DNA of 64,000 bases, taken from Hypanus sabinus. Lineage: Eukaryota. The first letter of the stretch is position 1; each line of letters starts with the position of its first letter. Position numbers and translations under genes: made by a program. Location of the stretch: the NCBI RefSeq assembly GCF_030144855.1, contig NC_082729.1, positions 17,360,001 through 17,424,000 of the forward strand, read 5' to 3'. The notes under the pieces were generated by a model, which searched no databases, was not told the DNA's origin, and saw only the letters and a list, made by a program, of their open reading frames with translations. Positions 4,010-53,360 of this stretch are shown here, in pieces.

Positions 4010-4425
4010 GAGTTTACTCCGGGTAGACAACGTTCACCTGGTTCATGTGTGGAAAGGGATTCATTCAGTTAACCCACCTTGCGAGGCTTCAAGGAGTTCT
4101 CAATAAGTAGAGGGCACAACTCTGTACTGAGTGAGTAAAGAGATTTACTCAATTATCCCACCTGCTAAAACACTAGCAAATTCACCTCAGGGACGAAGTT
4201 GAAATAATTTCTATGGTGACTGAAGCCAGTTGCAAGCTCACGAGGGACCGTTAATGCCAGATTCCGTAGATATTGCAGCTTCTCATCACACACCGGATTG
4301 AACCCTGGTCGCTGAGCATTAAAGGGGTTTGTTCTGTTGATGTTTGCCTTAAATTAGACTGCTGTTTAATATTTTGGATCTGTGCAAATAAATGAATTCT
4401 ATTTCAAATCCTCCTGTCTCAAGTG
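4010..4425 (+). pseudogene. C2H2 ZNF 3' relic (about two broken fingers plus the family 3'UTR)
   Basis: Contains tgtggaaagggattcattcagttaacccacctt (CGKGFIQLTHL) and ...cacctgctaaaacactag. The following 3'UTR is paralogous to 9490-9735, with AATAAA at 4387-4392. Confidence 0.75.
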
Positions 4426-4555
4426 TTTACTGTCTCTGTTACACGTCCATAAACAATAGAGAGGCCAATCTGTCCAGCTGATCTCTGCTATTCACCTCTC
4501 ACTCTCCCTGTGATAACGGGTTGCAACTGGTCACCACTGTGTCGGTGAGGGGGGA

Positions 4556-4799
4556 TGATGCACCATCAATAACTCTCTGAGACGTGAGGTGAGATATAGG
4601 CTTTTATTGACTGGAAGAAAGAACAAGCAGCAATTGACCATCATGCTACATCCTGGAGACTGAGTTGCAGGGCTCAGGCCCCAATCGCCTTTATACCGGG
4701 GTCTGTTGGAGGAGCCACGGTTAGTGGGAGGAGCCACAGGAGCAGTCAGCCGGAGCGGGTGGGGGGAGGTGTCCAGACAGGTATATGTAGTTCACCTCA
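4556..4799 (-). mobile_element. Solo LTR (Gypsy-like)
   Basis: TG...CA termini; TATAAA (~4690) and AATAAA (~4605) in the correct order on the minus strand; G-rich 4-5 bp flanks consistent with a TSD. It interrupts sequence that is contiguous in the paralogous cassettes. Confidence 0.7.
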
Positions 4800-5569
4800 G
4801 GGGGTTATCTTGAATTTCCTCTCTGACTTTCTGCAGACTGCAGAAGAAGATAAGCTTACTGAGGTTATGTCCCAAACATTCCTCGTTCCTTAGAGCTTTG
4901 GGCGAAGGGAAAACTTCCTGGGTGGTTAAACTTCTTCTTCCCTGTTCTTTTAAATACTATGAGTTATTTTGACTGATTTCAAAGGGCAGTGTCTTACAGA
5001 GCTGGGTTGTTGCAATACACAACTCTCCTTTAGATTACGAGAGTTGAATGGTCGGTAAATCTTCTACAGTGCGGGATCGGAAACCAAAGTGAATCCTGAA
5101 CAAGCCATGCATTTGGGGCTTCAAATGAGGTGGTAGTTAGAGTAGATGGGGAGGAGGAGGAAATCAGACCAGGAGGATGTGGTTACAAATGAAAGATCAG
5201 CAAATTTTGGAAAATGATTGACTGGAAAATATGTTGCTTATTTCTGCAAAAATGCTGGTGGAAACCAGCAGGTCAAGAAACATCTATGGAGAGGAATAGA
5301 CAGTCGTCTTTACGGGCAGAGAACATTCACCATGCTGATGTCTGGGGAAGGGGTTCGGCCTGAAGCCTCGGCTATTTATTCTTCGGCATCAATGCCACCT
5401 GACTTGCTGAGCTTCTCCAGCATTTTGTATGTGTTGCTCTATATTTCGAGAATGTGCAGGATTCCTCGCGTTTCATACTGCCTTTTTAAATGGGCTGTGC
5501 TTTGACCGCTGACACACGGAATGCCTGTTCATATTGAATATATTCATTGCAGGAGCTTGTTGTGTTAAA

Positions 5570-6070
5570 GTAGCCGCCGAGTTTCTGCATAAAAGCATTG
5601 CCTGTTCTCGGGGCAAGTGGCGGGAAACCGATGTTTGAATTGATTTTAAATGGCATCATCCCTACCCAGAAACCTTCACGGTTCAGCATTAGCCGTCGGT
5701 GACCCAGCGATCAAATGCGCAAGCGTAAGGGTCATTTATTGTCCCGAGTACGCGCATGCGCTCAATGAACAAAAGGCTCTGGAGATTCGGCAGCAGGTAG
5801 GAGCGGTTGTCCGGGTGGGGTTTCCGTACCGCGATTGAGGGACAGCGAATCCGGACACACCATGGCCCTGCACCTGGGACAGTTTCAGTTCTGTCCACCT
5901 TTCTCAGCCCACGATCCGTACCCACACCCGGGGAGCTGGGCGGCAGGCCCCGATGGAGGGTCGTAAATTGGGGGGCCGCTTCGTCGAGTACCCTGCACCA
6001 TCCCCAAAAGTGGAGCTTACCGGTGGCCTAATATTTCAATTCCGATTCCCTTTCCCGGTCCGACATATCG
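5570..6070 (+). promoter_or_regulatory. CpG-rich promoter and first exon of ZNF gene 1
   Basis: NRF1-type GCGCATGCGC (~5752-5761), E2F-type TGGCGGGAAA (5618-5627), TTTGAA (5634-5639), and a putative donor CAG|GTAGGA at 5796/5797. Confidence 0.65.
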
Positions 6071-7379
6071 ATACATGGCCTCCTCTTCACCCAACCTGAT
6101 GTTACTAATTTCATTTTCTTCCGATGAACAAATTACCTCCGACCATCTTCTTCTGTTCCATATTCTGACCTTTCACTTATTCTCACCTACCTGGAGTTGC
6201 CTTCTCCTTCTCTTTCCCCTATTCTCCACTCTCCTCGCCTATCCGATTCCTTCTTCTCCAGCCCTCGACCTTTTCCAACCACCTTGCTTCAACTATCACC
6301 TTCCACCTAGCCTCTTTCATTCACCTCACCGCACCTTTTTATTCTGGCACTTTCCCCCTTCTTTCTCAATCTTGAAGAAGGGTTCGGCTCAAGACGTTGA
6401 CTGTTTACACTTTCCCACAGATGCTACCTGACCTGCCGAGTTCCTCCAGCGTTCTGTGTGTGTTGCTTTGGAACTTCAGCACCCGCAGACTTTATGGTGC
6501 TGAGGGTTTCATCAGCACCGGTGTCCGCTCCTCGACTGAGGGATAATTTCTGTGAGCTAGGGACACTGCAGTTTTGCAAACCCAGCACAGTCTCGGTTCT
6601 TTCCCTCTCTCCAACCCCCTTGATCTGTACCTGGGCCACGGGGAATGTTCTGCTGAGTGAAGGTGCTGGTGCCATTTCTGCAGTGCATGCAGATTTTCTG
6701 GAGCTGTGATGAACAGACAGATCTCTTGTTTTTGGGGTTCAGAATTAGTCATGGGTGGAAGTGTGAGTGCTTTCCTTACTAGTGGTTAAAGTGTGTTTGG
6801 AAGCACACGTGGAGGGAGTGGATCTCCCAGAAACAGATCCAGCAATCTAAATACAAGGATCAGGAGCTCAGAGCAAAAATGTAGTTCTGAGTTAGTCTCT
6901 GAAGAGTCTACCTTCCAGTCAATAAAAATATCAGTTATTTCTACACATGAAAAGAAAGACAAAATCCTTCCATCAGCTTTAGTTCTTGAGAAAATCACCT
7001 TTGTTCTGCCTCCTCTTGTTCTGGACCATTCTACCTGTGAGAACATGTTTGTCCAATTCTCTCTGGCTGCATAATGATATCAAACATCTTTGTCCTGGGT
7101 AACAAGTGACCTGTAGCTTTCACATCACATAAGTGCCACTCTCCAATGAGAAATACTGCTGCCTCCGCTTCATATTCATTGGTATTGCCTTCAATTAGTT
7201 CACCACCCTCAATCACCTAGAGTGGTGGGGGTCAGAGTAACTAGAAAGTATCCAGGATGAGCCGTGTAATATCATATCTTCTCTGTAGCACTGTGAGACA
7301 TGAGCAGAACTTGACACTATAGTAATGGAGAGAGACACACTGAACCAAGTGACAGACTGAAGACGGGCAGAAATGTCCC

Positions 7380-8050
7380 GTCAACACACTCAAAATGTTG
7401 GAGGAACTCAGCAGGCCCAACAGCATCGATGAAAAAAAGTAAACAGTCAATATTTCAGACTGAAACCCTCATCTGGACTGTAGAAAAAAAGATGAGGTCA
7501 GGGTAAGATGGTGGGTGGAGGGAAGGAAGAAATACAAGGTGAAGGGTGAAACCGATGAGAAGAAGGGTGAAGTAAAGAGCTGGGAAGTCAATTGGTGAAA
7601 GAGATAAAGGGCTGGTGAAGGGTGAATCTGACAAGAGAGGACCTAAAGCCAGGGAAGAAAGAAAAATAGGGAGATGATGGGCGGGTAAATTGAGAGAAGG
7701 GAATGAGGTATGGTGAAGGTGGTGGTGGGGGGGGGGGGGGGGGGTGGGGGAACAAGTAACTGAAGTTCCAGAAATCTATGTTCGTGCCATCAGGTTGGAG
7801 GCTGCCCAGACGGAATGCAAGGTGTTGCTCCTCCAACCTGAGTGTTGGCTCATCACAGTAGTAGTGCAGCCTGTGGACTGACTTGTTGGAATGGGAATGG
7901 GAAGTTGAAACAAAATATGTGACCACTGGGAGATCCCACTTTATCTGGCAGACAGAGCGTAAGTGCTCAGTGAAGCAGTCTCCCAATCTACAGGAAGCCA
8001 TACCGGGAGCACTGGATACAGTAGATGACCCGATAGACTCACGGGTGAAG
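7380..8050 (-). mobile_element. Penelope-like element, GIY-YIG endonuclease C-terminal fragment
   Basis: ORF 7588-8001 reads RLGDCFTEHLRSV...HSHSN...LRLEEQHLAFRLGSLQPDGTNIDF, followed by a CT-rich tract and the PLE terminal repeat. Confidence 0.85.
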
Positions 8051-8727
8051 TGTCACATTCTTATTGAGACAGGAGGATCGTTAGAGAATTTCATGGACAG
8101 TCGAGAATCCCCGAGCAATTGAGGTGTTGTTCCGCCAACTTGGGTTGAATCTCGTTGTAACAGTGTGCTGTCAGAGCTCATTAAAGGCCTTAAACTCTCA
8201 TCTGAAATGTTGTCCTTCACCCATTGATGTATTTTGTTGCTCTTTTTATAGATTAGAAACGACAAAAAATTTGTGTACAGAGATCTCAACAACAGCCCGT
8301 CAATTTTGCTGCCTCTGTACAGATATAAAAGGAGTGAACAGATATTTCCCTTGTAACACCAGTATATCTGTTGTTGATGAAGAAGTATTTCATTCTGGCT
8401 GGAAACGTGCTTTGTGTTTTCTGTTGCAACTCATTGAAATCCACTGGAACCAGGGTACTGAGAACACACCAGCATTTGTTTACTAGAGATAAGTTCTTCC
8501 GTTGCATTGACTGTGCAAAGGGTTCACTACATGTAGCATCTGACTCCATTAATTTGTCAGAGAACTCACAGCAGGGAGGTATCATTCACCTCTCCGTGAG
8601 GCAAAGGATTCTCTCACTCAGCCAACCTTCAGACACAATACAGTGAGGTCATTTACCTGCTCAGACTGTGGGAAGGGATTATCAGTCATCTGACCTACCG
8701 CTACACCAATCAGTTCACCCTGGGGAG

Positions 8728-9492
8728 ATGCCGTTCACCTGCTCGGACTGTGGGAAGGGATTCACTCGGTCCTCCAGCCTGCAGAGACACCAGTCTGTTC
8801 ACACTGGGGAAAGGCCATTCACATGTTCTGTGTGTGGAAAGGGATTCACTCGTTCATCCCACCTACAAGCACACCAGTCAATTCACACAGGGGAGAAACC
8901 ATTCACCTGTTCTTACTGTGGTAAGGGTTTCAACGGATCAACTGACCTACTGGCACATCAGTCAGTTCACACTGGGGAGAAACCGTTCTCATGCTCTGAC
9001 TGTGGGAAGGGATTCTCTCGGTCATTCAGCCTCCAGAGACACCAGCGAGTTCACACTGGAGAGAGACCGTTCACGTGTTCATTGTGTGGGAAGGGATTTA
9101 CTCGGTCAGGCAGCCTGCAAACACACCAGCGATTTCACACTGGGGAGTGGCCGTTCACATGCTCCGACTGTGGAAAGAGATTCACTCGGTCATCTGACCT
9201 GCTGGCACATCAGTTAGTTCACACTGGGAAGACGCTGTTCTCCTGCTCAGACTGTGGGAAGGGATTCACTCGGTCATTCAGCCTACAGAGACACCAGTCA
9301 GTTCACACTGGGGAGAGGCCATTCACATGTTCCGTTTGTGGGAAGCGATTCGCTCGGTCATCCCACCTACAAACACACCAGTCAGTTCATACTGGGGAGA
9401 AACTGTTTACCCGCTCAGACTGTGGGAAGGGTTTCACTGGATCAACTGACATACTGACACTTCAGCGAGTTCACACAGGGGAAACAGTTTAA
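8728..9492 (+). CDS. C2H2 zinc-finger array protein (8 intact fingers + 1 degenerate, ~254 aa)
   Basis: Tandem CxxC-x12-HxxxH units with TGE(R/K)P linkers. First in-frame ATG is 8728 (the ORF track's 8668 start is GTG). Exon acceptor tttttatag| at 8251; AATAAA at 9698-9703. Confidence 0.85.
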
Positions 9493-10395
9493 GTAAGCTG
9501 CATGCTGGATATGTAAACCGTCACAGTTGCTGAAACCTGCAGCAAGTTCAAAAGTGACTGTTGGTATCAAACTCTGCAATTAATGCTGCTATTCATCACA
9601 CCCTTTTCTGCACCCTGGTCACTGGACATGGAAGGTATTTCTTGTGATATTGTTCACCTTTAATAGGACTGGTGATTAATATTCTGGATCTGTCACTAAT
9701 AAATCAGTTCTGTTTTAAACTCTGTCTCAGTTACCTAGTGAATCTAAACACACCCAGTGCACAGTAGGGAGTCAACAGCCCAGCTGGCCCTTGCCAGAAT
9801 TTCTGTTCCACAAGAGTCCTCATAAGTTCAATCCTGCCATTCACCTCTGCCTCTCCCTGTGGAGATGAGTTCTAAACAGTCACCATTCTGTGGGTGAAGA
9901 GGTTTCCCTTCAATTTCCTGCATGACTTTCTGCAGTCTGAAGAGGACAAATTGATTGCAGTTATTTATATCTGTCATGTCCTTCATCCCTGAAATCTCTG
10001 GGCTGATGAAGTCTGACACTGGCCGTTAGCCTCCTATGCCCTGCTCATTTCCACATTATGGGTCATATTTACTCCTGAAGAGCTGAACAGGGAAACAGAG
10101 CAGGGGGTGTGTAAGTGAATGTCAGAGTAGCAACATTTAGAAGCTGATGTAGAAAAAAATTAGGTTGACTTTGACTTGACACATGATGCCTGTTGACTTT
10201 GAGTACATTGCTTGTAGGAGCTTGCTCTATTAAATTTCCTACTCAGTTCTGATAAAAATAATAACTTGATTGGTGGCATTCAGCAGAAAGGAGGCAATGC
10301 TTGTAAGCACTCTCTATTGCACTGTTCTTACCCAGAAATCTCTGAGCTTCAGAATGTACTATCATTGCGAATCAAGCACAGAGGTGCTGAGTGTC

Positions 10396-10715
10396 CGTTG
10401 GATCTGACTGTTTAATTGTCATTTTCTTTGTAGTTGAACAATTACTTATCTGCTTGCATTTTAAGTAGACTATATGCATTACAGTTTAATATGCCTGTAG
10501 TAGATGTATAAAGTAGACCTCTGGAAGTTTCTTTGTACTTTATTAAATGAGTGTTTCCTCATTGGTTAATACTTACTGCAGTAATGACTAAGTATTTTCT
10601 AAATGGATTATTTTGAATGGGATTTTTCTACCTTTATGCTGGATGGCATCATTAATGTCTGTCTGCTTCAAATAGTAGACCCTTGTCACCATTCAGTTCC
10701 TGTTCGATCAAATTT
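10396..10715 (+). mobile_element. Truncated ERV-like LTR (copy A), downstream of ZNF gene 1
   Basis: Aligns by eye to the reverse complements of 22559-22997 and 45107-45517 (gttggatc...gcttcaaatagtagaccc). Similarity stops before the AATAAA and PBS. Confidence 0.6.
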
Positions 10716-20040: not shown

Positions 20041-21322
20041 CTTCAAGCTGATCCAAACTGTCCTGTAGCAGTCTTCATATTCAGAAATATCTTCTAAAAC
20101 CTTTTGTTTGCAAATGACTACTTTACTTAAATCAATCTGTGTTGGGGTTTGTTCTTCCAATCATTTCTTAATTGCATACCAATCATCTGGTAAATTCTGC
20201 TTACCCTCTCCTCCATCATCCTCAGATTGACATCACTGGGCCTTGGAGTTCCCAAGATGGTGCTGTTTCTGAGGTCAATTCAGTATTGCTGCATTCCACC
20301 ATGTGACATCACTGTTAATACTGCCCACCAAAGGTCTTTGCTGTGCATTGCAACTTTGTCTGTTTCTAACTCTGAAAAATGTGACTCCTCACGGCTACAT
20401 TTATCATGTTGTTTTGTCACTCCATCAGTTTACAAGGAAATCCATTTGTTTACTATCTCTATCATACTGTTCCTTCAGCATGTGACACATTCCTTCCTTT
20501 TCTCCCAATTGATTAGTTATTTACTTGCTAGTTTATTCACCATGTGCTTGCTTTAAATTACACACTTGATTTTCTAACCTGACACCTTCACATTTAAATC
20601 CATTTCTAGCTTCTAGCTTGGCATGGTCATGCTTTCTTAGCCCTGATAATACAGTTTTAAAAAAAAAAATTCCCAACCACATTTTCTGAATCTTATATTC
20701 CATGTCTTTTGAACATCACTCATAAGACAAGTTCCACTAGACTCAGCATCAATAGCATATTTCTTCCAGACTTTTTTCACTAATGGCATCAAATTCAGTT
20801 GTTCAAATAGGTACTAAAACCCTCTGTTATCTGTCCTCTCTAGCTGGAGACTCTGCACTTTGTTTCTCAACTTTGGCCATTGTCTTAGTTGGATCAATGA
20901 GTACTTTTCACTTAGATGACAATCACAGTATTAGAATCACAATCCAAAATGTATAACTAGAGTTAAAACCTTAAGTATCAAGAGTCACAACCCAAAATAT
21001 TTTCATAGTGCTGTGCCCAAAAAGTATCAGAAAATTATTAAACAGACACTTATCATACTGAAATAAGGCAAATTCGTAAGATATGAGAAGTTATACATGT
21101 ATAGCATGTTTAACAGTCAGTTAAAAATGAAAGGTGATAAAACTGCTATATAACTATTATATCATTTTGCCACCAGTAGGTGGAGCTTAACATCATATAT
21201 TATAAAAAATACAAGTTAAAAATACAATTTATATGTTAGTGAAACTAGAATTTTTGTTTTGCTAAAAGCTCATTAATTCAATTAATACCGTACTAAAAAT
21301 ATAAGAACAACTGATTCCAACA
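20041..21322 (-). mobile_element. ERV remnant 2: LTR-like start plus gag fragments
   Basis: Begins TGTTGGAATC at 21322. Minus strand 20160-20041 reads LEEQTPTQIDLSKVVICKQKVLEDISEYEDCYRTVW, which resembles a capsid major-homology region. Confidence 0.55.
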
Positions 21323-22997
21323 CTTTCGATCTCCATGCTCTTGAATTAGGTCTGCTAACATGTGTTTCTCATTGATACAAAGGGTAAATGATTTACCTGT
21401 GTCAGGGATTATTAATGCAGGTGCAGTACACAATATCATCTTTAAAACTTGAAATGCTTTCAGTTGTTCTTCATTAGGAATCACGGGGTTGTCCGAGCCC
21501 TTGCTGACCTTCAGCTGATTGTTGAGTGGTTGAGCAACAGTTGATGGATCTGTCACTAGCTTGTCAATACATTAATTAGCAATGGACCCTGATGAAGAGT
21601 CTTGGTTCAAAGGTTTGACTGTTTACACTTTTGTATAGATGCTGCCTGACGTGCTGAATTACTCCACCATTTTGTGTGCCGCACAGTTGAAGTTGCTGCC
21701 TGTGCTTTCTGACATTGTTTCCATTTATTTTTGAGCCGTGAGCAATTTACATCAATTGAATTAAAAAGAGAAGAAATTCTGCAGATGCTGGTAATCCAGA
21801 ACAATTCACACCAACACAAGTACCTCCAGCATTTTCTGCATGTGACTTTGAATTACAATCTTGTTCTTTCGCTCGTTGGTTAATGCAAAGATTTGCTCTT
21901 TGGGCATTTCACTGTTTCTATCGTGTTTTTGTAGTTCATCATAAGCTTTGTGTTTCTTTCAATTAGTAAAAGATTTACTCATCCTATTACACTTTAATCA
22001 GTCACACATTTAATCAAACTAACCAGATGCTCTTGTCTCTAAATCAATAACAAACATTTCAAGACTCTTATCCCATACGTTCACAATATCACCTAGGAGC
22101 CATATTTCATTAGATTTAACATTATAGGTATATTTCAATAATCTTATCAAAATTGAATGTTTCACAACTTTTGGCCATTGCTTTGATGCAATCTTAAATA
22201 CATACATACTTTTACTTTGATCGCAATCTTGAATTTTTAACAGGTTGTCCTGCAAACTGAATTTTCCCCATGCTCTGCTCGCTTCCACAATTTCGTTAGC
22301 CTTTTTATCTGTGCTCTACTGCCTGTATGAATTTAATTTTTTGAAGTTTGCCCTTCTTTTTAACAGATGTTTATTTAAAAAAAGCAACACAACAGTCCTC
22401 CATCCTGATTTCCCTCTGGTAATGTAAAAGCCAGAGCTAGTTTTTTTTCTCAGACAATTTACAACATAAAATGAAGTTCTTACCCCATTTTTAGGTGCCA
22501 AATATTCTTTCATTGTTTTGGATTATTCTGAGCTCTAAGTGCTGACGACTACTCCAATTGGCGAATTTAGTGTTTCAATCCAAGGTACTTTTAAAAGTCA
22601 GGAACGAGGCATGAACTTGTTGCTTCACCATCGTTTTATTAAAAGTTGATAGGAGTGGAACAGTGGCAGGGGTCTACTACTTGAAGAAGAGAGAGAAGCA
22701 AAAGATGGCACACCTGGCATAAAACAGCTACTTCTAAGCCAGAAACTAAGAAAAACCCCATTCAAATCTAAATATGATAATCCACTTAGAAAGAACTGAG
22801 TCAATACTGCAGCAAAAATTAACTAATGACAAAACACTTACTTAATGAATTGCAAAGAAGCCCCAGAATTACACTTTGTATAGCCACTATAGGCATATGA
22901 AACTGTAATGAATACAATGGCTGCGTAAAATACAAGGTTAATAATTGTTAAACTGCAGAGACAATAATACTTTAAAATTAAACATTAGGATCCAACA
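21323..22997 (-). mobile_element. ERV remnant 1 (gamma/epsilon-like): LTR 22559-22997, PBS(Ser) 22539-22556, gag-like and pol connection-domain fragments
   Basis: LTR has TG...CA ends and an AATAAA. PBS TGGAGTAGTCGTCAGCAC matches the tRNA-Ser complement TGGCGTAGTCGGCAGGAT at 14/18. Pol peptide AQPL...KAFQVLKMILCTAPALIIPDTGKSFTLCINEK resembles MLV-type [21 protein letters not shown]. Confidence 0.75.
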
Positions 22998-24266
22998 GGC
23001 TCTCGGTACCTGTGCACTCGATTCACGGTGATAATACATTCTAAAGCTCACTTAGATTTCCGGGTAACAACAGTGCCATTGAAAGTGTTGACAAACTCTG
23101 CCAAATAGTATCATCGGTCAGTATTTTTTATCAGGGTTTAGCAGGCAATTTAACACAGCAAGCTTCCACAGGCAATATACTCAATGTCAACAGGCACCGT
23201 GCCTGTCAAAAGTCAAAGTCAACCTGGTTTTTTCTGTCAATCAGCTTCCAAACGTTGCTACTCTGTCACTTGTGGCCACACCCCCTGCTCATCATCATCT
23301 CTTCTTACCCCTACCTCTGTGCAGAGTACCAAACTGTGCCCTGTGCTGCCACGTCGCTGGTTTCTGACCCTGCTCCAGTGGGCATCCAACGAATGGTTCT
23401 CCATTCTGCTTTCAGACTTTCAAGGACAGTGGTTTATAGTGACAACCAAACTCTGTGTGTCACAGCTCTTTAGAAGCAGTGAAAGTGACCATAATGTTGG
23501 AATGACCAGGGAATAAGTTGGTTAACTACCAATTTCAGTCTTTCTCAGGCCACAGATTTGTGGGGCAAAGAACAGGTTAGTCACCACTGCAGTCAGCTCA
23601 CCCTCTTCAGTCTGCGGAAAGTCAAGCAGGAAACTTATGGGAAACCTCTTCACCCACAGATGAACAGCAGGAAAGGATTTAAAAGGAATATCATGAAACA
23701 GAAATAATAACAGGCTGTGCTGAGTCTATTCCCTACTGTAAAAAGGGAGTGATGTAGATTCACTCAATACCTGAGACAGAGTTTCAAATAGAACTGATTT
23801 ATTTGTCATGGATCCAGAATATTAAACTCCAGTCCTATTAAACGAGAACATCAGCAGAAAAAAACTCCTTCCATGCCCAGTGACCAGGGTATAGAACTGG
23901 GTTTGATGAACAGCAGCAACAATTGCAAAGTTCAACACCAACAATGACTTTTGAACTTGCGTCTGGATTCAGCAACCAGAATGATTAAATATCCAGCATG
24001 TAGCTTACTTAAACTGTTTCCCCAGTGTGAATTTGATAGTGTGTCACAAGGTTGGATGAGTGAGTGAATCCCTTCCCACAGAGCAGGCTAATGCTCTCCC
24101 ACCCACCAATGTGAACTCAATGATGCACCTTCAGTTGAGATGACCAAATGAATTCCATTCCACAGTCTGAGCAGGTGAACGGTCTCTCCCCAGTGTGAAC
24201 TAACTGGCATTGCAGTAGGGCAGATGACCGAGTTAGTCCCTTTCCAAAGACTGAGCAGATGAATGG

Positions 24267-25697
24267 CTAACCCTCACTGTGAACTGACTGGTGTGCCTGT
24301 AGCTGAGATGCCCAAGTGAATCCCTTCCCACAGTCTGAGCAGGTGAATGGTTTCTTCCCAGTGTGAACCAACTGATGCTGCATTAGGGCAGATGATCGAG
24401 TGAATCCCTTTCCACAGACGGAGCAGGTAAATGGCCTCTCTCCAGTGTGAACTCGCTGATGTACCTTCAGATAAGATGACTGAGCGAATCCCTTCCCACA
24501 TTCTGAGCAGGTGAATGGCCTCTCCCCAGTGTGAACTAACTGGTGTGCCAGTAACTGAGATGAGCGAGTGAATCCCTTCCCACAGACTGAGCAGGTGAAT
24601 GGTTTCTTCCCAGAGTGAACTAACTGGTGTTGCTGTAGGGCAGATGACCGAGTGAATCCCTTCCCACAGATTGAGCAAGTGAATGGCCTCTCTCCAGTGT
24701 GTACTCGTTGATGTACCTTCAGTTCAGATGACCGAACAAATCTCTTCCCACAGTCTGAGCAAATAAATGGCCTCTCTCCAGTGTGAACTGACTGGTGTCT
24801 CTGTAGTTGAGAGAACTGAGCAAATCCCTTCCCACATACAGAACAGGTGAATGGCTTCTCTCCTGTGTGAACTCGCTGGTGTGCCAGGAGGTCAGAAGTC
24901 TGATTGAATCCCTTCCCACAGTCTGAGCAGGTGAACGGTTTCCCCTTAGTGTGAACTAACTGGTGTGTCATAAGCTGAGATGACCGAGTGAATCCCTTCC
25001 CACAGTCTGTGCAGGTGAATGGCCTCTCCCCAGTGTGAACTCGCTGATGTATCTTCAGTTCAGATGCCCAAGAAAATCCCTTCCCACAGTCTGAGCAGGT
25101 GAATGGCCACTTCTTGGTGTGAACTGACTGGTGTCTCTGCAGGTCAGATGACCGAGTGAATCCCTTCCCACAATCTGAGCAAGTGAATGGCCTTTCCCCA
25201 CTGTGAACTAACTGGTGTGTCAACAGGTGAGATGACCGAGTGAAGCCCTTCCCACAATCGAAGCAGGTGAATGGTTTCTTCCCAGTGTGAATTGATTGGT
25301 GTGCCAGCAGGTCAGATGATCGAGTGAATCCCTTCCCACAGTCTGAGCAGGTGAATGGCCTCTCCCCAGTGTGAACTCGCTGATGTAGCTTCAGTTCAGA
25401 TGGCCAGGTGAATCCCTTCCCACAGTCTGAGCAAATCAACGGCCTCTCCCCAGTGTGAACTGACTGGTGTCTCTGTAGGTTGCTTAACCGAGTGAATCTA
25501 TTCCCACACACAGAACAGGTGAATGGTCTCTCTCCCATGTGAACTCGCTTGTGTGACTGCAGGTGGGTTGGCTGAGTGAATCCCTTTCCACATTCGGAGC
25601 AGGTCAGTGGCCTCTGCCCAGTGTGAACCCGCTGATGTACTTTCAGATGAGATGACTGAATGAATTCCTTCCCACAATCTGAGCAGGCATATGACAT
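24267..25697 (-). CDS. C2H2 zinc-finger array protein (17 intact fingers, 476 aa)
   Basis: Uninterrupted tandem fingers, flanked by degenerate fingers upstream (25700-26300) and downstream (24010-24266). Acceptor at 26557; AATAAA at 23798-23803 on the minus strand. Confidence 0.9.
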   Translation of the reverse strand: MSYACSDCGKEFIQSSHLKVHQRVHTGQRPLTCSECGKGFTQPTHLQSHKRVHMGERPFTCSVCGNRFTRLSNLQRHQSVHTGERPLICSDCGKGFTWPSELKLHQRVHTGERPFTCSDCGKGFTRSSDLLAHQSIHTGKKPFTCFDCGKGFTRSSHLLTHQLVHSGERPFTCSDCGKGFTRSSDLQRHQSVHTKKWPFTCSDCGKGFSWASELKIHQRVHTGERPFTCTDCGKGFTRSSQLMTHQLVHTKGKPFTCSDCGKGFNQTSDLLAHQRVHTGEKPFTCSVCGKGFAQFSQLQRHQSVHTGERPFICSDCGKRFVRSSELKVHQRVHTGERPFTCSICGKGFTRSSALQQHQLVHSGKKPFTCSVCGKGFTRSSQLLAHQLVHTGERPFTCSECGKGFAQSSYLKVHQRVHTGERPFTCSVCGKGFTRSSALMQHQLVHTGKKPFTCSDCGKGFTWASQLQAHQSVHSEG

Positions 25698-26934: not shown

Positions 26935-26972
26935 AGTCAACATTTCGGGCTGAGACCCTTCATCAGGACTGA
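26935..26972 (-). ncRNA. Penelope-type minimal hammerhead ribozyme motif (possibly decayed)
   Basis: Minus strand reads CAGTC-CTGATGA-AGGGTCTCAGCCC-GAAA-TGTT-GACTG: CUGAUGA and GAAA core boxes, stem II, and stem I CAGUC/GACUG. Confidence 0.55.
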
Positions 26973-28290: not shown

Positions 28291-28429
28291 TCAAGATTTA
28301 AAGCTTCAAAAGTTCATTTTTATCAAAGTATGTCTGCAGTATACAACTTTGAGATTCTTCTCCAGATAGCCCCAAAACAAAGAAAACCATGGAAGTTAGT
28401 TCAAAGAGAAAGAGCCTAACAGCACAAAA

Positions 28430-43116: not shown

Positions 43117-43139
43117 GTGTCTCAGAGGACCATCCGATG

Positions 43140-44880: not shown

Positions 44881-45029
44881 ACCAGCAGCAGTGTCCCGGC
44901 TGCGTCATGAACAGGACATCTGGAGGAACTCGGCAGGCACGGCAGCATCTGTGGAAGACTAAACAGTTAATGTTTTGGGCTAAGACCCTTCGTTTTGAAG
45001 TTGCGCCTTTGCTCCTGACCAGGATCTTG

Positions 45030-45517
45030 AAATTTTGTTTAGGAACCAAACATTCAGTCTTTGTCTTGGATTATTCCAAGCTCTATATCCTGCTGACTAT
45101 TGCAATTGATGGATTTTGGAAGTTTAAATCTAAGATTCTTTTAGAAGTCAGGAATGGGACATAAAACATGTTGCTTCATGATTGCTTTATTAAAAGATGA
45201 TAGAACAGGAACAGAACAGTGAAAGGGGTCTACTACTTGAAGCAGCAAGAGAAACAAAATATGGACTCTTGTGTAACACAGCTACTTTCATACACAAATA
45301 AAAATTTCCATTCAAATCTATGATAACAATAATCCAATAAGAAAGTACTTGGTCAATATTGCAGTACAAATTAACCAATGAGGAAATACTTATTTATGTA
45401 AGTCCCAGAATTATACTTTGTACATGCATAGTAAACTATTATGTATACAAAGGCTACTCAAAATACAAGCAGATAACTAATTGAAAACTGCAAAGAAAAT
45501 GACAAACAGATTCAACA
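45030..45517 (-). mobile_element. ERV-like LTR (copy C, 45107-45517) with PBS(Ser) at 45087-45104
   Basis: Paralogous to 22480-22997; PBS TGCAATAGTCAGCAGGAT matches the tRNA-Ser complement at 14/18. Confidence 0.65.
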
Positions 45518-46940
45518 GACTCAGCACATGCACACACAGTGATTGTACCTTCTAAAACTCAAATTTCTGGGGAAGAATAATATCTCGAAAGCATTTACAA
45601 GCATCGCCTCCTCTGTGCCCAAATGTCACCAATCAAGTCAATATTTTTATGAGAACTCAGTAGCCAGTTTAACATAGCAAGTTCCCACAAGCAATGTACT
45701 CAATGACAACAGACATAGTGTATCAACAAAGTCAACCTAATGTTTTTCCTCTGTCAATCAGCTTCCAAATGTTGCTACCCTGCCATTTGTTGCCACACCC
45801 CCTGCTCTGTTTCCCTGTTCCTCATCATATGCTCTTAACCCTACCACTGACCAGAGCCCCAGACTCTGTCCTCTGCTGACCCGTCTCTGGTTTCTGACCA
45901 TGTTCCACTGAACATACAACTATTGGTCCTCCATTCTGCTTTCGGACTTTGGAGGACAGTGTGTATCCTAACAACCCATCTGTGTGAGAAAGCCCTTTAG
46001 AACCAGTGAAAATGGCCTATATCATTGAAATGAACAGGGAAAAAGGTCATTATCTATCAATGTCATTCTTCCTTGCCCAGATATTCAAAGGATGAAGAAC
46101 AAGCCAAACATGACTGCAGCCAACTCGTCTTCTTCAATCTGCAGAAAGTCATGCAGGAAATTCAGATGAAACCTCTTCACCCACAGAGTGGTGATTATTT
46201 GGAAACCATCTCCACAGGGAGACCCAGAGGTGGACGGCAGGGATGGACTTAAAGGACTGTTACAGAACAAAAACTCCTGCAGGGATCAGATGGGCTCAGT
46301 TGACTCACTGTTGTACACTGGGTGTGTTGTAGCTTCACTAAGTACCTGAGACAGAGTTTAAAATAGAACTGGTTTATTCGTCACAGATCCAGAATACTAA
46401 ACTCCAGTCCTATTAGTGAACATCGACATAATAAACTCCTCCCATGCCCAGTGAACAGGGTGCAGAACTGGGTGTGACGAGCAGCAGCAATAACTGCAGA
46501 GTTTGCCACCAACAATTACTTTTGAACTTGCCTCAGGATTCAGCAACCACAATGGTTAAATGTCCAACATGCAGCCGATTTAAACTTTTTCCCCAGTGTG
46601 GACCGAATAGTGCATCACAAAGTGAGATGACCGAGTGAATCACCTTCCACACTCAGAACTGGTGAATGGTGTGAACTCGCTGATGTGTCAGTAGCTGAAA
46701 TGGCTGAGTGAATCCCTTCCCACAGTCTGACAGGTAAATAGTTTCTCCCCAGTATGAGCTGACTGGTGAGCCAGTAGATCAGTTGATCCAGTGAAACCCA
46801 TCCCACATTCTGAGCAGGTGAAATGCCTCTGTCCAGTGTAAACTTGCTGGTGTTTCTGGAAGTTGTATGACTGTTGTAAACCCCTCCCATACACAGAACA
46901 CGTGAGTGGCCTCTCTCCCAGTGTGAACCAACTGGCGTTT

Positions 46941-48089
46941 CTACTGGCTGCATGATGGAGTGAATCCCTTTCCACAGTCAGAGTAAGTGAATGCCTCTCT
47001 CCCAGTGTGAACTCGCTGGTGTCTCTGCAGACTGAATGACCGAGTGAATTTCTTCCCACACACTGAACACATGAATGGCCTCTCCCCAGTGTGAACTCGC
47101 TGATGTACCTTCAGTTGAGATAACCGAATGAATCTCTTCCCACAGTCTGAGCAGGTAAATGGCTTCTCCCCAGTGTGAATTCGTTGATGTACCTTCAGTT
47201 GAGATGATCGAGTGAATCCCTTACCACAGTCTGAGCAGGTAAATGGCCTCTCCCCAGTGTGAACTCGCTGGTGTCCTAATAGTTGAGATGATTGAGTAAA
47301 TCCTTTCCCACAGTCTGAGCAGGTGAATGGCCTCTCCCCATTATGGACTCGCTGGTGTGTTTGTAGGTGGGATAACTTAGTGAACCCCTTCCCACAGTCT
47401 GAGCAGATGAATGGCCTCTCTCCAGTGTGAAGTCGTCGATGTTCCTTCAGGTGAAATGACCGAGTGAATCCCTTCCCACAGTCTGAGCAGGTGAACGGCG
47501 TCTCCCCAGTGTGAACTGACTGATGAGCCAGTAGGTCAGGTAACCGAGTAAATCCCTTTCCACACATGGAACACACGAATGGCCTTTCCCCAGTGTGAAC
47601 AGACTGGTGTCTCTGTAGGCTGAAGGACCGAGTGAATCCCTTCCCACAATGTGAACAGGTGAATGGCATCTCCCCGGTGTGAACTGACTGGTGTTCCAAT
47701 AGTTGAGATGACCGAGGAAATCCTTTCCCACAGTGTAAGCAGATGAAGGGCCTCTCCCCAGTGTGAACTGGCTGATGTTCCTTCAGTTGAGATAACCGGG
47801 TAAATCCCTTACCACAGTCTGAGCAGGTAAACGGCCTCTCCCCAGTGTGAACTCGCTGATGTTCCTTCATTTGAGATGAACGACAAAATCTCTTCCCGCA
47901 GTGTGAGCAGGTGAACGGCCTCTCCCCAGTGTGAACTCGCTGATGTCCCTTCAGTTGAGATGACCGAGTAAATCTCATCCCACAATCTGAGCAGGTGAAC
48001 GGCCTCTCTCCAGTGTGAATTCGCTGATGTTCCTTCAGGTCAGATGACCGAGTAAATCCCTTCCCACAGTCTAAGCAGGTAAAAGACAT
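46941..48089 (-). CDS. C2H2 zinc-finger array protein (13 intact fingers, 382 aa)
   Basis: Tandem fingers with TGERP linkers; broken fingers continue downstream to ~46580. Acceptor at 48588; AATAAA at 46373-46378 on the minus strand. Confidence 0.88.
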
Positions 48090-49669
48090 CTCCCCAATGT
48101 GAACTGACCGGTGTGCCAGTAAGTCAGATGACTGATTGAGTCCCTTCCCAGTCTGATCAAGTAAATGGCCTCAATGCTGTGTCTGGGGGTCGGCTGCATG
48201 AGAGAATCCTTTCCCTCACTGAGAGCAGCTGAATGATATCTGCTTGCTTTCAGTTCTCTGACAATTCGTGCAGTCAGATGTCAGACGTAGTGAATCCCTC
48301 ACACAGTCAATGCAGTTGAAGAACTGATCTCTAATGAACCAATGCTGTTGTGTTCTCAGCACCCCGGTTGCAGTGGATTACACCGAGTTACAGACGAAAA
48401 CTCTATTTCAGACTCAAAACCTATTTCCAGCTGGAATGAGATGCTTCTTCATCTCCTAGAATCAAAAAACAGAAATATTGGTGTTACAAAATATCTGGTC
48501 ACTCCTTAAATATTTAGACTGAGACAGCAAATCTGAGTTGCTGTTGTGTTTGATGTCCCCAAACACCAATCCTTTGTCGTGTTTAATCTGTAAAAAGATC
48601 AACAACAGACATCAATGGATGAAAGACAACATTTCAGAAGAGATTTTAGGACTCTGTGGTGAGCTCTGACAGCACACTGTTACAATAAGTTTCAACCCAA
48701 GCTGGAGGAACAGCTCCTTAACAGCTCAGGGCATCTAGACCACCCATCAAATTGTCTAACTCTAAGAATGGACATTCTTGCCCATCACCATCTGTGACTT
48801 CTTTCTCCATTAGTATCATTTCAAGTTCTGCTCACGCCTCACAGCGCTGCAGAGAACACATGCTATCATATGGCTGATCCTGGAGACTTTCTAATTACTC
48901 TGACCCCCCCCACCACACCAGGTGATTGATGGTGGGGAATACCAATGAATACGAAGGGAAAGGCACTAGGATTTCTCATTGGAGTGTGGCCCTTGTATGA
49001 TGCGGAAGCTACAGGTCACTTGTTACCCAGGACAAAAGTGTTTGATAACACTGTGTATCCAGAGAGAATGGTACAAAACACATTCTCATGGGTAGAAGGT
49101 CCAGAATACGAGGAGATAGAATGAAGGTGATTGTCTCAAGAACTAAAGGCGGTGGAATGATTTTGTTCTGTTTTTCCATGCAGCATTAACCGATATTTTT
49201 TATTCGTAGATTCTCCATCCGAGATAAACTCAGAACTATATTTTTGTTTCAAGTTCCTAATCCTTGGATTTAAATAGATGGAGCATGACAGTGTCTGGGA
49301 GATCTATCCACTCCTATTCCCTGTTTACGCTTCCAAACATGCCCTATAGCAGGGAAAGCAGTAGAAGTGTCATCCATGGCTGCCTTTATACCCATAGACC
49401 TCCACAAATGAGTGACAAGTCTATCCATCATGCTTGCAATGATCCATATGTGCCACAGAAATAGCATGAGTACCTTCGCTCATTAGCCGAAAGCTCCTGA
49501 GGCCTGGGTACAGATTGTGGGGCTGAGAGACAGGGATCCGGTGTTTGCAGAACCACGGTGTATCCTAAGCTCGGAGCAATTGCCCCTCGACAGAGGTGCA
49601 GACACCGATGATGCTGATGAAACCGCAAACCTAAGAGAGTCTGCAGATGCTGGACATCCAAAGTAACCC

Positions 49670-52530
49670 CATAAGATATAGGAGCAGAATTAGGCCATTT
49701 AGCCCATTGTCTGCTCCATCATTTCATCATGAATGATCCATTTTCCCTCTCAGCTCCAATCTCCTGCCTTCTCCCCATATCGAGCTTGCAAGCACCACTT
49801 GCACTGGCAGCTGCTTCTACATTCTCACAACCATCTGAGTGAAGACGTTTCCCTTCATGTTCACCTTAACCTCTTCATCCTTCACCCTCCAACCCATGAC
49901 CTCTGGTTGTAGTCCCACACAACCTTACACCACCTCAGTGGATAAAACCAGCTGTATTTACCCTCTCTATACCCCTCATAATTTTATATACCTCTATCAA
50001 ATCTCCTCTCTGTCTTCCATATTCTAATGAATAAAGTCGCAATCTATTCAATCTTTCCTTATAAATCAGGTCCTCTGGACTCAGCATCATCCTTTCTCTG
50101 TACTATTTCAACCCTATTTACATCTTTTCTGTAGGTTGGTGTATTCAGGCATCCAAATATTCAAGTATCCAATCCCTTAGAACACTCTCCCACTTCTGAG
50201 GTCAGGCTCACCGGCCCATCATTTCCTTCTTAAACATCAGAAAAACATTGGCTATCATCAAATCCTCTGGTACCTCACCTGTCGCTAAGGATGATCTAAG
50301 CAACTCCGCTCGGGCCTCGGCAATTTCTCCATTTGCCTTCTTCAGGGTCTGAGGGATCACCTTGTCAGGCCCTGGGGGGGGGGTTTATCCACCCTAATTT
50401 GCCTCAAGACAGCAAGCACCTGTAACCTGTACTGGGTCCAGGAAGTTGATGCCGCTTTGCCTCCCTTCTATAGACTCTGTGTCCGTCTGCTGAGTAAATA
50501 CAGATGCAAAAAGTGCATTCCAGATCAGTCCCATCTCTTTTGCGTCCATGCATGGATCACTATTCTGATCTTCCAGAGGACCAACTTTATCCCTTGCAAT
50601 CCTTTTGTTCTTAACATATCTGTAGAATTCCTTAGGATTCTCCCTCACCTTGTCTGCTAAGGCAACCTCATACTTTCTTTTAGCCCTGATTTCATAAGGG
50701 TTCCCTTGCATTTTATTACACTCCCTAGTCACTTCATTCCTTTCAACCTGCCTATGCACCTTCTTTTTATTTTCAAAAATAGGGCCTCAGTATCTCTTGA
50801 AAATCAACGTCTCATCGGGACGTACTGATTAAGGAAACTTTCCTGAACACATTTGACAAACTCTATCCCAGCTAGTCCTTACACAGTGTGGGAGTCCCAG
50901 TCAATACGTGGAAAATAAAAAAAAAAATTCAACCTGAGTTTGAAACAACCCTGTGATTCTTCCAACAGTCTGGCAATCTCTCTACAAAGTTGTTCCTCTA
51001 AGTTCCTCGGACTGTTGGGTGGTCTGTAATATAGCCCCACTAATGTGGCCATAACTTTCTTATTACTCAGTTCCACTCATATCGCCTCAGTAGACGAGTT
51101 CGCTAGTCTGTTGTGACTCAGCACTGCCAGAACATTTTCCCCAACTAGTAACATCATCTTTTGTCACTCCCACTGTTGTGTCTAAAACATCGGAGCCCCC
51201 GAATATTGAGCTGTCAGACCAGCCCCTCCTGCAACCAAGCCTCACTAATGCTACAATATCATAATGCCAGGTGCCGATCCATGCCCTGAGCTTATCTGCC
51301 TTTCCTGCAATTCTCCTTGCACCGAACTGAACACAGCTCAGCTTATTAGTCAGATCATGCTCAGCCTTTTGATTCCTGACTTTGACTGAGGTTTTAACAA
51401 CATCTGTCCCCACAACCTCTCTGCTATCTGTTCCGGCACTCTGGTTCCCACCCCCCCTGCAACTTAAGGGAGAAATCAGGAAGGCTAGGTGGGGACATGA
51501 GGTTGCTCTGCTGATAAGGTGGAAGAGAATCCCAAGGGCTTCTTTACATATATCAAAGACTAAGGATAGCAAGTAAATAAAGAAAGATCAGTGTGGAGAT
51601 CTACCCGCAGAACCAAAAGGGAAGGGAAAGATCTTAAGGGAATTGTTTGCATTTGTATTTACCATAAAGAAATACACAGGATCTATCAAACCGACTGAGG
51701 CTTAAGAGTAATCAGGTGCTGGAACTTACCACAATCACAGAAAAGGAGGTGCTTGCTGTCTGAAGTCAAATAGGGTGGATAAATCCCCAAGGCCTGCAAG
51801 GTGTTCCCTCCACCTTGCAGGAGGCTAGTCCAGAAGTTGCATGGGGCTTAACAGAGACACTTAAAAAACCCATACCACAGCTGAGGTGCCAGTGGACTGG
51901 AAGACAGCAACTGTTCCATTGTTTAGGAAAGGCTCTAAGAATAAACCGGGAAAGTCTGACATCAGCTGTGAGTAAATTATTCGAAAGTATTCTTTGCAAC
52001 TGAACATATAAGTATTTGGCTAGACATCTCTCGATTAGGAATAGTTAATATAGATAAACCCCTATCAGGTACATTGCTAACTAACCTTATATAGACTTTG
52101 AATTGTTATGAAGAAGGTTGATGTAGGAGAGACGGTGAACGTTGTGTAAGTGGACATTAGCAAGGCCTATGACAGCCTGAATGTTAAATGGCTTAGCGTA
52201 CAGGAGGAAATTGTGGGAGTAGATGGTTGTCTGTCTAACTGGAGGCCGGTTACACTGGTGCACCGCAGTGACTGGTGCTTGGTCCATTCTTGTTTATCAT
52301 TTATATCGACGATTTAGATCAGGATCAGGATGACAATAAAATGTGAGACATAGTGGACAGCGAGGAAGTGTATCGAAGCTTGCAACGTGATCTGGACCAG
52401 CTGGCAAAATGACAGAAGGAATTTTAATGCAGCCAAGTATGAATAGTTTGGATAGCGACATGCATGAGAGGGATATGGTCCGTGTGCAGGAAAATGGGAG
52501 AAAAACAGGTCAGTACAAACTAGATGGGTC
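49670..52530. mobile_element. Block of CR1 fragments (minus strand to ~51460, plus strand after)
   Basis: KADKLRAWIGTWHYDIVA, GLYYRPPNS and ENPKEFYRYVKNK on minus; RT relics on plus. Confidence 0.8.
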
Positions 52531-53199
52531 GAACGACCCGATTCTGTGCTCTCACCTTGTCCCGCGCCCCCCAATCCACGGTCCTGAACTTTTTTTTTCC
52601 AGGTGAAGCGGTAATCCAGTCGTACTTTTTCCAGTCTAGTCCGCTGTATTCGGTGATCACACCGTGGTCTCGCCTACACTGGAGAAACGAAACAAAGATT
52701 GGTCGGTCACCCTCATATTCACTGTTAATGTTATTGCAGCAGCCATCAATCTGCTTAAGCGGGTGGATCAAAAATGAGGGATAGGGAACAGTGAATAGTG
52801 CCTCCTGCACTGTGATACTGAGGAAGAAACCCTCATCAGTTCGGGAACGTCAGAGCCTCTGGTCTCCATATTAATCTGCCCAGCTGTACTGCGCGTGGGC
52901 GGCCAGCTCGGAGAGGGAGTTCAAAGGTCAAATGTGTAACGTGAAATTTAATATTACCACGTACAAGCCCGAGGTTATTTTTCCCGCAGGCATACTTCAC
53001 GGCGAAAACGCAAAGCACTTTCAAACGTTTCCACGAGAAAGTTTGCAGGTGCTGGAAATCCAAGCAACACACACAAAATGCTGGAGGAGTTCGGCAGGCC
53101 AGACAACGTCAATGGGAAAGTATAAAGCCGACGATTCGGGCCCTTCATCCCGAAACGTAGACAGGTCACTCTTCCGCCAGCATTTTGTGTCTGTTGCTT

Positions 53200-53360
53200 C
53201 AGACGCTTCCGGCCGTTTCGGGAGGCGCGGGCCCCACGGCGGAGCTCCGGGCTGGGACCAAGGAGGGAGGCGCTTGCGTGCGGGCGATCTGTGACGGCGA
53301 GAGCAGCCCGGGCGCTTCCCGACCTGCACCTGCAACTACCTTCCCACCGCTTACCTCCTC
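53200..53360 (-). promoter_or_regulatory. CpG-rich patch, candidate first exon/intron start of ZNF gene 3
   Basis: GC- and CpG-rich. Minus-strand CAG|GTCGGG near 53325 resembles the putative donors of genes 1 and 2; ETS-like CCGGAAG near 53206. Confidence 0.4.

What the first reader, a model, noticed from the sequence alone, without database searches (positions are those of the whole stretch)
4010..53360. ZNF genes amplified as a cassette that carries a downstream retroviral LTR/PBS
Seen: three genes (~5.6-10.7 kb +, ~22.5-28.3 kb -, ~45.0-53.3 kb -) share, in order, intron sequence, finger exon, 3'UTR, a spacer, and the same sense-oriented LTR about 0.7-0.9 kb past the poly(A) signal. Two copies keep the tRNA-Ser PBS. 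The relics at 4.0 kb and 31.5 kb share the 3' part. Known: tetrapod KRAB-ZNF clusters expand alongside ERVs, and some ZFPs bind PBS sequences (ZFP809 binds PBS-Pro). Inference: a KRAB-independent ZNF family whose duplication unit includes an ERV LTR, possibly driving expansion by recombination or linking ZNF expression to ERV activity. This is the best candidate here for an undescribed system.
Basis: partly seen in the sequence, partly recalled or inferred. Interest (0 to 1): 0.72.

Follow-up and report, generated by a model that had tools for sequence, protein, structure and literature searches.

The report
Fossil provirus hitchhiking with zinc-finger genes
One ancient retrovirus landed once behind a zinc-finger gene and was copied along with it to at least two dozen places in the genome, most likely as a decaying passenger, which extends a pattern known from mouse gene clusters to KRAB-less genes of what is probably a shark or ray.

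Summary
The cassette is real and genome-wide, but looks like a passenger. The three genes share intron, finger exon, 3'UTR, spacer and a ~410-440 bp LTR 0.70-0.86 kb past the poly(A) signal; two keep a decayed tRNA-Ser PBS. The LTR belongs to an old dispersed ERV family with free two-LTR proviruses. At least 24 ZNF-linked LTRs on 8 contigs were found; the 14 aligned share one junction base, and 23 form one clade with a single free copy: one insertion, then DNA duplication. The 'spacer' is a decayed copy of the genes' own promoter, so the virus entered the next unit of a head-to-tail array. Most family members lack the LTR (5 of 30 carry it in a 3'UTR-selected sample), no LTR-ZNF-LTR unit was seen, and LTR, PBS and LTR poly(A) signal decay like free copies, whereas the finger-only ORFs are under purifying selection. 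The relics carry no LTR, and gene 3's proposed 5' end is a histone H2A relic. Same process as ERV co-duplication in mouse KRAB-ZNF clusters; new are the KRAB-less host, the age, and synchrony of ERV invasion and ZNF radiation. One look-up found no earlier scan note of it.

The parts
4010..5640 (+). Relic upstream ZNF unit (decayed fingers, 3'UTR 4214-4430, spacer leading into gene 1's promoter); no LTR
5640..5796 (+). Gene 1 CpG-rich promoter / non-coding exon 1 (CpG o/e 0.93; NRF1-like motif, name recalled); donor at 5797 inferred from sequence; homologous to the downstream 'spacer' end
5797..8251 (+). Gene 1 intron (family-shared parts 6462-7335 and 8080-8251, LINE/SINE inserts)
8252..9740 (+). 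Gene 1 last exon: decayed-finger leader, finger-only ORF 8728-9492 (8 C2H2 fingers, Met 4 residues before first finger), 3'UTR with poly(A) signal at 9698
9741..10395 (+). Gene 1 distal UTR and spacer (decayed promoter copy of the next unit; about 180 bp deleted)
10396..10715 (+). ERV 5' LTR, 3' end and PBS deleted; followed at 10716-11365 by a LINE-like piece shared with six other ERV-bearing loci
21150..22538 (-). Broken proviral leader, gag-like and pol (RT tether/RNase H-like) remnant behind gene 2
   Evidence: (RT_RNaseH_2 E 3e-4, below cut-off)
22539..22556 (-). tRNA-Ser PBS, 14 of 18 matches
22559..22997 (-). ERV 5' LTR behind gene 2; LTR poly(A) signal at 22640
22998..23760 (-). Gene 2 distal UTR and spacer (decayed promoter copy)
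23760..26556 (-). Gene 2 last exon: decayed-finger leader, finger-only ORF 25697-24267 (17 fingers, 476 aa), poly(A) signal at 23803
26557..28015 (-). Gene 2 intron (GT-AG), bridged by a spliced contig of run X1
   Evidence: (X1 record 7)
28016..28300 (-). Gene 2 CpG-rich promoter / non-coding exon 1 (CpG o/e 0.99)
30600..32040 (-). Relic upstream ZNF unit of gene 2, paralogous to the 4.0-kb relic (about 70%); no LTR
45038..45104 (-). tRNA-Ser PBS (45104-45087, 14 of 18 matches) and short leader remnant behind gene 3
45107..45517 (-). ERV 5' LTR behind gene 3; LTR poly(A) signal at 45191
45518..46329 (-). Gene 3 distal UTR and spacer (decayed promoter copy, CpG o/e 0.2)
46330..48587 (-). Gene 3 last exon: finger-only ORF 48089-46941 (13 fingers), decayed fingers after it, poly(A) signal at 46378
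48588..49667 (-). Gene 3 family-shared intron sequence; first exon not identified
53161..53559 (+).
   Evidence: (Histone_H2A_C E 8e-11)

Best explanation
One old endogenous retrovirus inserted once behind a finger-only C2H2 zinc-finger gene and was copied with it by DNA duplication to at least 24 loci, where it most likely decays as a passenger while the zinc-finger genes are what selection keeps. Shown: single shared junction, one LTR clade, empty-site paralogs, nested shared deletions in the provirus, neutral-like decay of LTR and PBS, purifying selection on the fingers. Shown: the insertion site lies in a decayed copy of the genes' own promoter, i.e. the start of the next unit of a head-to-tail array. 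Inferred: the virus hit that promoter while it was still a CpG-rich open site; spread between chromosomes went by segmental (often near-end) duplication during a rapid family radiation that coincided with the ERV family's activity; the proteins are sequence-specific DNA binders with diversifying contact residues, probably aimed at repeats (untested).
For: Junction: 14 of 14 aligned LTR-bearing paralogs switch to the LTR at the same base; 10 of 10 aligned LTR-less paralogs continue there with one shared flank (rows hand-picked for a spacer reaching the junction). That flank and the spacer align to gene 1's promoter (scores 80-132, shuffle maximum 39; CpG o/e 0.93-0.99 in live promoters, 0.15-0.31 in the copies) and intron. 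LTR tree: 23 ZNF-linked LTRs plus 1 of 17 free LTRs form one branch (98/96). One internal deletion of the provirus is shared by 5 loci on three contigs while others keep that pol stretch. LTR dispensable: 5 of 30 loci picked by a 3'UTR query carry it within 1.5 kb, 11 are empty-site; L078, L082, L217 lost the LTR but keep gag/pol or env remnants. Decay: PBS 3.56 mismatches of 18 in both ZNF-linked and free copies, none perfect; LTR poly(A) signal 15 of 23 vs 12 of 17; median distance LTR 0.25, distal UTR 0.28, spacer 0.30, proximal UTR 0.21. Fingers: dN/dS 0.34 at non-contact and 1.15 at contact positions, 238 inner fingers; ORFs of 8 or more fingers in 12 of 16 ERV-bearing and 6 of 7 empty-site genes. 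Precedent: PMC12575710 section 12, PMC13709654 section 9.
Against: The host-flank tree does not recover ERV-bearing copies as one clade (3 changes; star-like; monophyly not rejected, p-AU 0.129). ZNF-linked LTRs are slightly less diverged than their flanks (0.25 vs 0.28-0.30; 0.24 vs 0.26-0.27 without CpG columns). A PBS is recognisable in 16 of 17 ZNF-linked but 9 of 15 free copies examined, though the ZNF-linked set was chosen for a retained LTR end. Contigs of two runs guessed to be RNA (one study) cross gene 2's spacer-LTR junction (X1 22674-23284, X2 22862-23283), so transcripts may include LTR sequence. All counts are lower bounds from best-40 searches; the insertion is too old for original breakpoints to be read with certainty.
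Confidence: 0.78

Rival explanations
1. The LTR was co-opted as part of the ZNF transcription unit (distal poly(A) site or regulatory element), putting ERV sequence in the mRNA and coupling ZNF output to ERV silencing.
For: Sense orientation 0.7-0.9 kb past the proximal signal; contigs of X1 and X2 cross spacer into LTR at 97% identity, and X1 holds a spliced contig of the same gene; LTR poly(A) signal kept in 15 of 20 copies where the site is present; LTR slightly less diverged than spacer.
Against: Signal retention equals that of free LTRs (12 of 17); no conserved window along the LTR relative to free copies; gene 1 keeps an 8-finger ORF without the LTR 3' end; most family members never had or lost the LTR and keep long ORFs; contigs cannot show an RNA end, the two stop at different places and RNA status is a guess.
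Confidence: 0.12
2. The LTR drove the amplification by non-allelic recombination.
For: The ERV family's age (5'-3' LTR distance 0.29-0.36, three proviruses; free LTRs 0.30) matches the depth of the ZNF radiation (0.31-0.32); such a role is modelled for mouse clusters (PMC12575710).
Against: No same-strand LTR upstream at 16 of 16 ERV-bearing genes; no 3' LTR in 20 of 20 downstream 10-kb stretches; 0 of 30 empty-site flanks have an LTR within 1.5 kb; shared sequence ends at scattered places inside gag, pol or env, not at the LTR; multi-unit tandems occur with and without the ERV; empty-site lineages are as deep and more numerous.
Confidence: 0.07
3. Repeated site-specific insertions of the ERV into ZNF promoter copies, or retroviral transduction of the ZNF gene.
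For: One free LTR (L012) falls inside the ZNF-linked branch, and the host-flank tree is unresolved.
Against: Independent insertions would sample the whole LTR family, yet all 23 linked LTRs sit on one branch at one base and orientation; shared internal deletions across contigs; the genes keep introns and lie upstream of a 5' LTR with its PBS, outside the provirus.
Confidence: 0.02

Closest known systems
ERV co-duplication in young mouse KRAB-ZNF clusters (Bruno et al. 2025, PMC12575710; abstract, outline and section 12 read); MMTV insertion amplified to 13 copies (review PMC13709654; passages and section 9 read)
   Same: An ERV that integrated once is multiplied by segmental duplication of ZNF genes rather than by retrotransposition; ZNF and ERV numbers rise together.
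   Different: Here the genes have no KRAB or other detected effector domain, the host is probably a cartilaginous fish, the event is very old (0.25-0.3 pairwise distance), copies lie on at least 8 contigs rather than in one cluster, the site is a promoter copy of the next tandem unit, and no ERV-mediated breakpoints or ZNF binding are shown.
Lineage-specific KRAB-less tandem ZNF expansions, e.g. cyprinid FiNZ-ZNFs (Wells et al. 2023, PMC10547256; passages read)
   Same: Large clustered C2H2 family outside tetrapods, near tRNA and histone genes, with constrained backbone and fast contact residues.
   Different: No N-terminal domain or coding first exon found; ORFs start at a Met in the linker before the first intact finger (13 of 18 vs 8 of 238 inner linkers). 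FiNZ itself was not tested.
Class I-like (gamma/epsilon-type) endogenous retroviruses with tRNA-Ser PBS (class features recalled)
   Same: TG...CA LTRs with short terminal inverted repeats, PBS, RT tether plus RNase H, integrase with MLV-type C-terminus (weak), env-TM-like remnant before the 3' LTR.
   Different: All copies seen are broken; PBS-to-tether distance is only about 1.0-1.3 kb in gene 2's copy and in free L165, so most of gag-pro-RT is missing and no RT tree could place the family.
ZFP809 binding of PBS-Pro (recalled, not checked in a paper)
   Same: Offers a model for a ZNF recognising a PBS.
   Different: Nothing here shows PBS binding, and the linked PBS copies are not conserved.

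Membership tests
ERV / LTR | TG...CA ends with terminal inverted repeat | tested here: met
   seen in free and linked copies, decayed in several
ERV / LTR | PBS complementary to a host tRNA 3' end directly after the 5' LTR | tested here: met
   tRNA-Ser(AGA); 14 of 18 in both window copies, 16 of 18 at best
ERV / LTR | Paired LTRs around internal coding remnants at unlinked loci | tested here: met
   L164, L165, L167, L170, L180 (5 of 20 free loci fetched), LTR pairs 69-81% identical
ERV / LTR | Target-site duplication | tested here: inconclusive
   one perfect 4-bp duplication (solo L028) and one 3-of-4 (L165) among 8 elements looked at; the rest too decayed
ERV / LTR | pol with RNase H and integrase | tested here: met
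   L165 RNase_H E 3e-11; Integrase_H2C2 and rve below cut-off; window copy only a weak RT_RNaseH_2 hit
Class I-like ERV | Gamma-type env TM; RT phylogeny | tested here: inconclusive
   no Pfam env hit in 12 frames, TM-like motifs by eye only (recalled); MLVIN_C E 0.007; RT core not found, no tree
KRAB-ZFP | KRAB domain | tested here: not met
   no KRAB/SCAN/BTB/SET among listed hits of the three ORFs (best 25 of 29-32 families shown) and no family at all in 9 upstream frames; spliced contig shows a non-coding exon 1 for gene 2
KRAB-ZFP | Tandem C2H2 array with TGE[KR]P linkers, constrained backbone, variable contacts | tested here: met
KRAB-ZFP | Binds and represses TEs through TRIM28 | not testable with these tools
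   needs ChIP-seq and reporter assays
FiNZ-ZNF | N-terminal FiNZ domain | not tested
   no model searched; no N-terminal coding exon found
ERV-ZNF co-duplication (mouse type) | Same insertion present in paralogous blocks, copied without retrotransposition | tested here: met
ERV-ZNF co-duplication (mouse type) | ERV-promoted recombination breakpoints | tested here: inconclusive
   none seen at the LTR, but old breakpoints are eroded
ERV-ZNF co-duplication (mouse type) | Cluster ZNFs bind the ERVs in the cluster | not testable with these tools
   no binding data
LTR-mediated gene transduction | Host sequence between two LTRs, intronless | tested here: not met
   intron kept, no upstream LTR

The most novel reading that the evidence does not exclude
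The finger-only ZNF family radiated in response to this very ERV invasion and represses it without KRAB, and the ERV-bearing branch reads through into the captured LTR, so that ZNF output is tied to the silencing state of the virus: an ancient, KRAB-independent arm-in-arm defence loop in cartilaginous fish.
Probability: 0.12. Interest if true: 0.72.

Novelty: new variant of a known kind. Interest (0 to 1): 0.36.

Why it matters
It shows that physical co-amplification of ERVs with zinc-finger genes, described for young mouse KRAB clusters, also happened in a KRAB-less family of a probable cartilaginous fish, and it gives a dated marker: one insertion that splits the family into filled and empty-site lineages and places the ZNF radiation at the time of an ERV invasion. 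That makes the family a concrete test set for whether effector-less tandem ZNFs target retroelements. As a functional system (LTR-driven or LTR-regulated ZNFs) it is not supported.

Tried and rejected
Spacer as a second LTR family: rejected, all spacer hits with free-looking ends sat behind ZNF UTRs and it aligns to the promoter. PBS as a tRNA gene relic: ARAGORN and Rfam find only tRNA-Thr at 423-498. Solo-LTR reading of PBS-less linked copies (L007, L015, L025, L027, L010, gene 1): what follows is a shared LINE-like piece, not the empty-site flank, so these are deletions. Search for the 3' junction of the original insertion: not found in 20 downstream stretches or 30 empty-flank loci, so its TSD is unknown. 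Unbiased regional count: 200 kb around the window held only one more relic unit (L133-L134) and no LTR, too few for a rate. Expression: no RNA holder listed on record; the four runs laid are contigs guessed to be RNA, so depth and uncovered parts were not used, and where transcripts end in the LTR and whether DNA runs of other organisms hold the junction remain open. Protein search gave generic ZNF hits; highest identities (59-68%) were to shark and ray proteins, used only for a class-level guess. The mean UTR distance was inflated by two deleted copies and replaced by medians without them. Trees left out 7 anchors (six near-copies on small contigs, one split UTR), L092 (junction deleted) and L009's split LTR. 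The RVT_1 hit in L143 was not attributed to the ERV; it may be a LINE insert. Literature searches listed no paper on ZNF-ERV cassettes in cartilaginous fish; bioRxiv 10.1101/2025.06.08.657570 has 0 occurrences of 'zinc finger' (passages). Subscription papers and supplements were not seen. No motif prediction for the finger arrays was attempted.
Full report
Observation. Self-comparison of the window shows three C2H2 finger exons (8, 17 and 13 fingers in open frames) that share intron, 3'UTR, spacer and a downstream repeat at 67-77% identity. The repeat starts at 10396, 22997 and 45517, 698-861 bases past the poly(A) signals. Behind genes 2 and 3 it is followed by an 18-mer with 14 matches to the complement of the genome's own tRNA-Ser(AGA) 3' end (21 exact pattern hits, 0 for the control, 6 of 6 fetched loci called tRNA-Ser). 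The relics at 4.0 and 31.5 kb share UTR and spacer but no LTR. The window lies in a 4.04-Gb genome; the highest-identity protein hits are from sharks and rays (59-68%), so a cartilaginous fish is inferred.

The repeat is an LTR of a dispersed, old ERV family. Searches with gene 2's post-PBS sequence found LTR-PBS-gag/pol loci without any ZNF on large contigs. Five of 20 free loci fetched have two LTRs around internal remnants, 69-81% identical (distances 0.29-0.36 for three). L165 gives RNase H (E 3e-11) and weak integrase hits; no Pfam env hit was obtained, only TM-like motifs by eye. One solo LTR has a perfect 4-bp target duplication; 7 others looked at are imperfect or unreadable. With a solo LTR as query, 5 of the 40 best hits coincide with known ZNF-linked loci (the others were not fetched). 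Class I-like affinity is a lead only, as no RT core was found.

One insertion, many duplications. Among 59 distinct UTR anchors from three searches (sample biased toward LTR carriers) 23 had the LTR downstream (21 distinct LTRs), 2 only gag/pol remnants, 10 the empty-site flank, 24 neither; three more spacer-LTR junctions lack a UTR anchor, giving at least 24 linked LTRs on 8 contigs. Fourteen of 14 aligned carriers switch to the LTR at the same base, and 10 of 10 aligned non-carriers continue there with one shared flank. All 23 linked LTRs on the tree, with one of 17 free LTRs, form one branch (98/96). The host-flank tree is star-like: three changes of state, monophyly not rejected (p-AU 0.129; wider tree). 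Linked copies keep varying lengths of gag, pol and env; one internal deletion is shared by five loci on three contigs, and a LINE-like piece behind gene 1 is shared by six other loci after separate deletions.

The site is a promoter copy. Spacer end plus empty-site flank align to gene 1's promoter and exon 1 (scores 80-132 vs shuffle maximum 39; gene 2's shorter probe only 29-42) and onward to the intron. Live promoters have CpG o/e 0.93-0.99, the copies 0.15-0.31. Relic-plus-gene tandems occur with the ERV (genes 1, 2, L195, L196) and without it (L200, L201). So the family unit is promoter, non-coding exon, intron, finger exon, UTR, arranged head to tail, and the virus entered the promoter of the next unit. 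That it did so while the promoter was active is inference from recalled integration preferences.

Is the LTR functional? With a UTR query from an LTR-less gene, 5 of 30 loci have the LTR within 1.5 kb, 11 the empty flank, 14 neither (one of these has the LTR behind a 1-kb insert, one an env remnant); with the empty flank as query 0 of 30 have an LTR. No same-strand LTR lies upstream in 13 fetched stretches or the 3 window genes, and no 3' LTR in 20 downstream stretches. Flank distances are 0.311 within carriers, 0.311 within empty-site copies, 0.323 between. PBS mismatches average 3.56 of 18 in both linked (16 of 17 recognisable) and free (9 of 15) copies; the LTR poly(A) signal is kept in 15 of 23 vs 12 of 17; median distances are 0.25 (LTR), 0.28 (distal UTR), 0.30 (spacer), 0.21 (proximal UTR) over 45 pairs. 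Against a pure passenger: the LTR is slightly the least diverged of the distal parts, and contigs of runs X1 and X2 (one study, RNA status guessed) cross gene 2's spacer-LTR junction, while X1 also holds a contig spliced across the 28015-26557 intron. Contigs do not show where an RNA ends.

The genes. ORFs are finger-only; no domain was found in nine upstream frames. Across 238 inner fingers dN/dS is 0.34 at non-contact and 1.15 at contact positions (between-gene finger pairs, not orthologous pairs), and 13 of 18 long ORFs have a Met four residues before the first finger. Long ORFs are as common with the ERV (12 of 16) as without (6 of 7). Targets are unknown.

Comparison. Bruno et al. (PMC12575710; abstract, outline, section 12) show ERVs multiplied by segmental duplication of KRAB-ZNF clusters and model ERV-promoted recombination; a review (PMC13709654; passages, section 9) cites one MMTV insertion raised to 13 copies. 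Wells et al. (PMC10547256; passages) cover KRAB-less expansions and the ZNF-retroelement correlation. Six searches listed nothing on such cassettes in cartilaginous fish; supplements were not read. The scan's own index gave one unrelated note.

Verdict. Real and well resolved; works like mouse ERV-ZNF co-duplication but is not a KRAB-ZFP system. Passenger 0.78, LTR co-option 0.12, LTR-driven recombination 0.07, other 0.02-0.03. New variant of a known kind; interest 0.36, up to 0.72 if the ZNFs prove to repress this ERV.

Noticed in passing
window 8728, 25697, 48089 and loci L187-L206: Long finger ORFs begin at a Met four residues before the first intact finger in 13 of 18 genes against 8 of 238 inner linkers; fingers upstream of it are decayed into a ~0.5-0.9 kb leader. 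Suggests an effector-less, finger-only ZNF family with a conserved recruited start codon.
   Followed up: partly
ZNF family radiation is star-like at the same depth (0.31-0.32) as the free LTR family (0.30) and 5'-3' LTR pairs (0.29-0.36); the branch from free to linked LTRs is only 0.013.
   Followed up: partly
G000 C28, C31, C38, C40, C43, C84: Several family members lie within 0.3 Mb of a contig start, which would fit spread by near-end exchange.
   Followed up: no
L054-L060, L115, L116 (small contigs): A near-identical, recently amplified LTR-less subfamily on many small unplaced contigs.
   Followed up: no
window 22556-21300; L165: Both linked and free copies have only about 1.0-1.3 kb between PBS and RT tether, suggesting the family spread as a non-autonomous deletion form.
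   Followed up: partly
window 53161-53559 (+), 58779-59100 (-), 59606-60097 (-): Histone genes: two broken H2A copies and an H2B, with histone 3' stem-loops at 58779-58823 and 59629-59674; tRNA-Thr at 423-498.
   Followed up: partly
window 35875-36497 and 37427-38040: A 620-bp direct repeat at 90% identity, 1.5 kb apart; possibly a younger LTR pair or local duplication.
   Followed up: no
L121-L124 (G000:C43:17.26-17.30 Mb): A repeat recurring about every 5 kb just upstream of the window, possibly a tandem array.
   Followed up: no
L149 4334-8238: After the env remnant the locus resumes with intron, UTR and spacer of a further ZNF unit, as expected if the virus entered the next unit's promoter.
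   Followed up: partly
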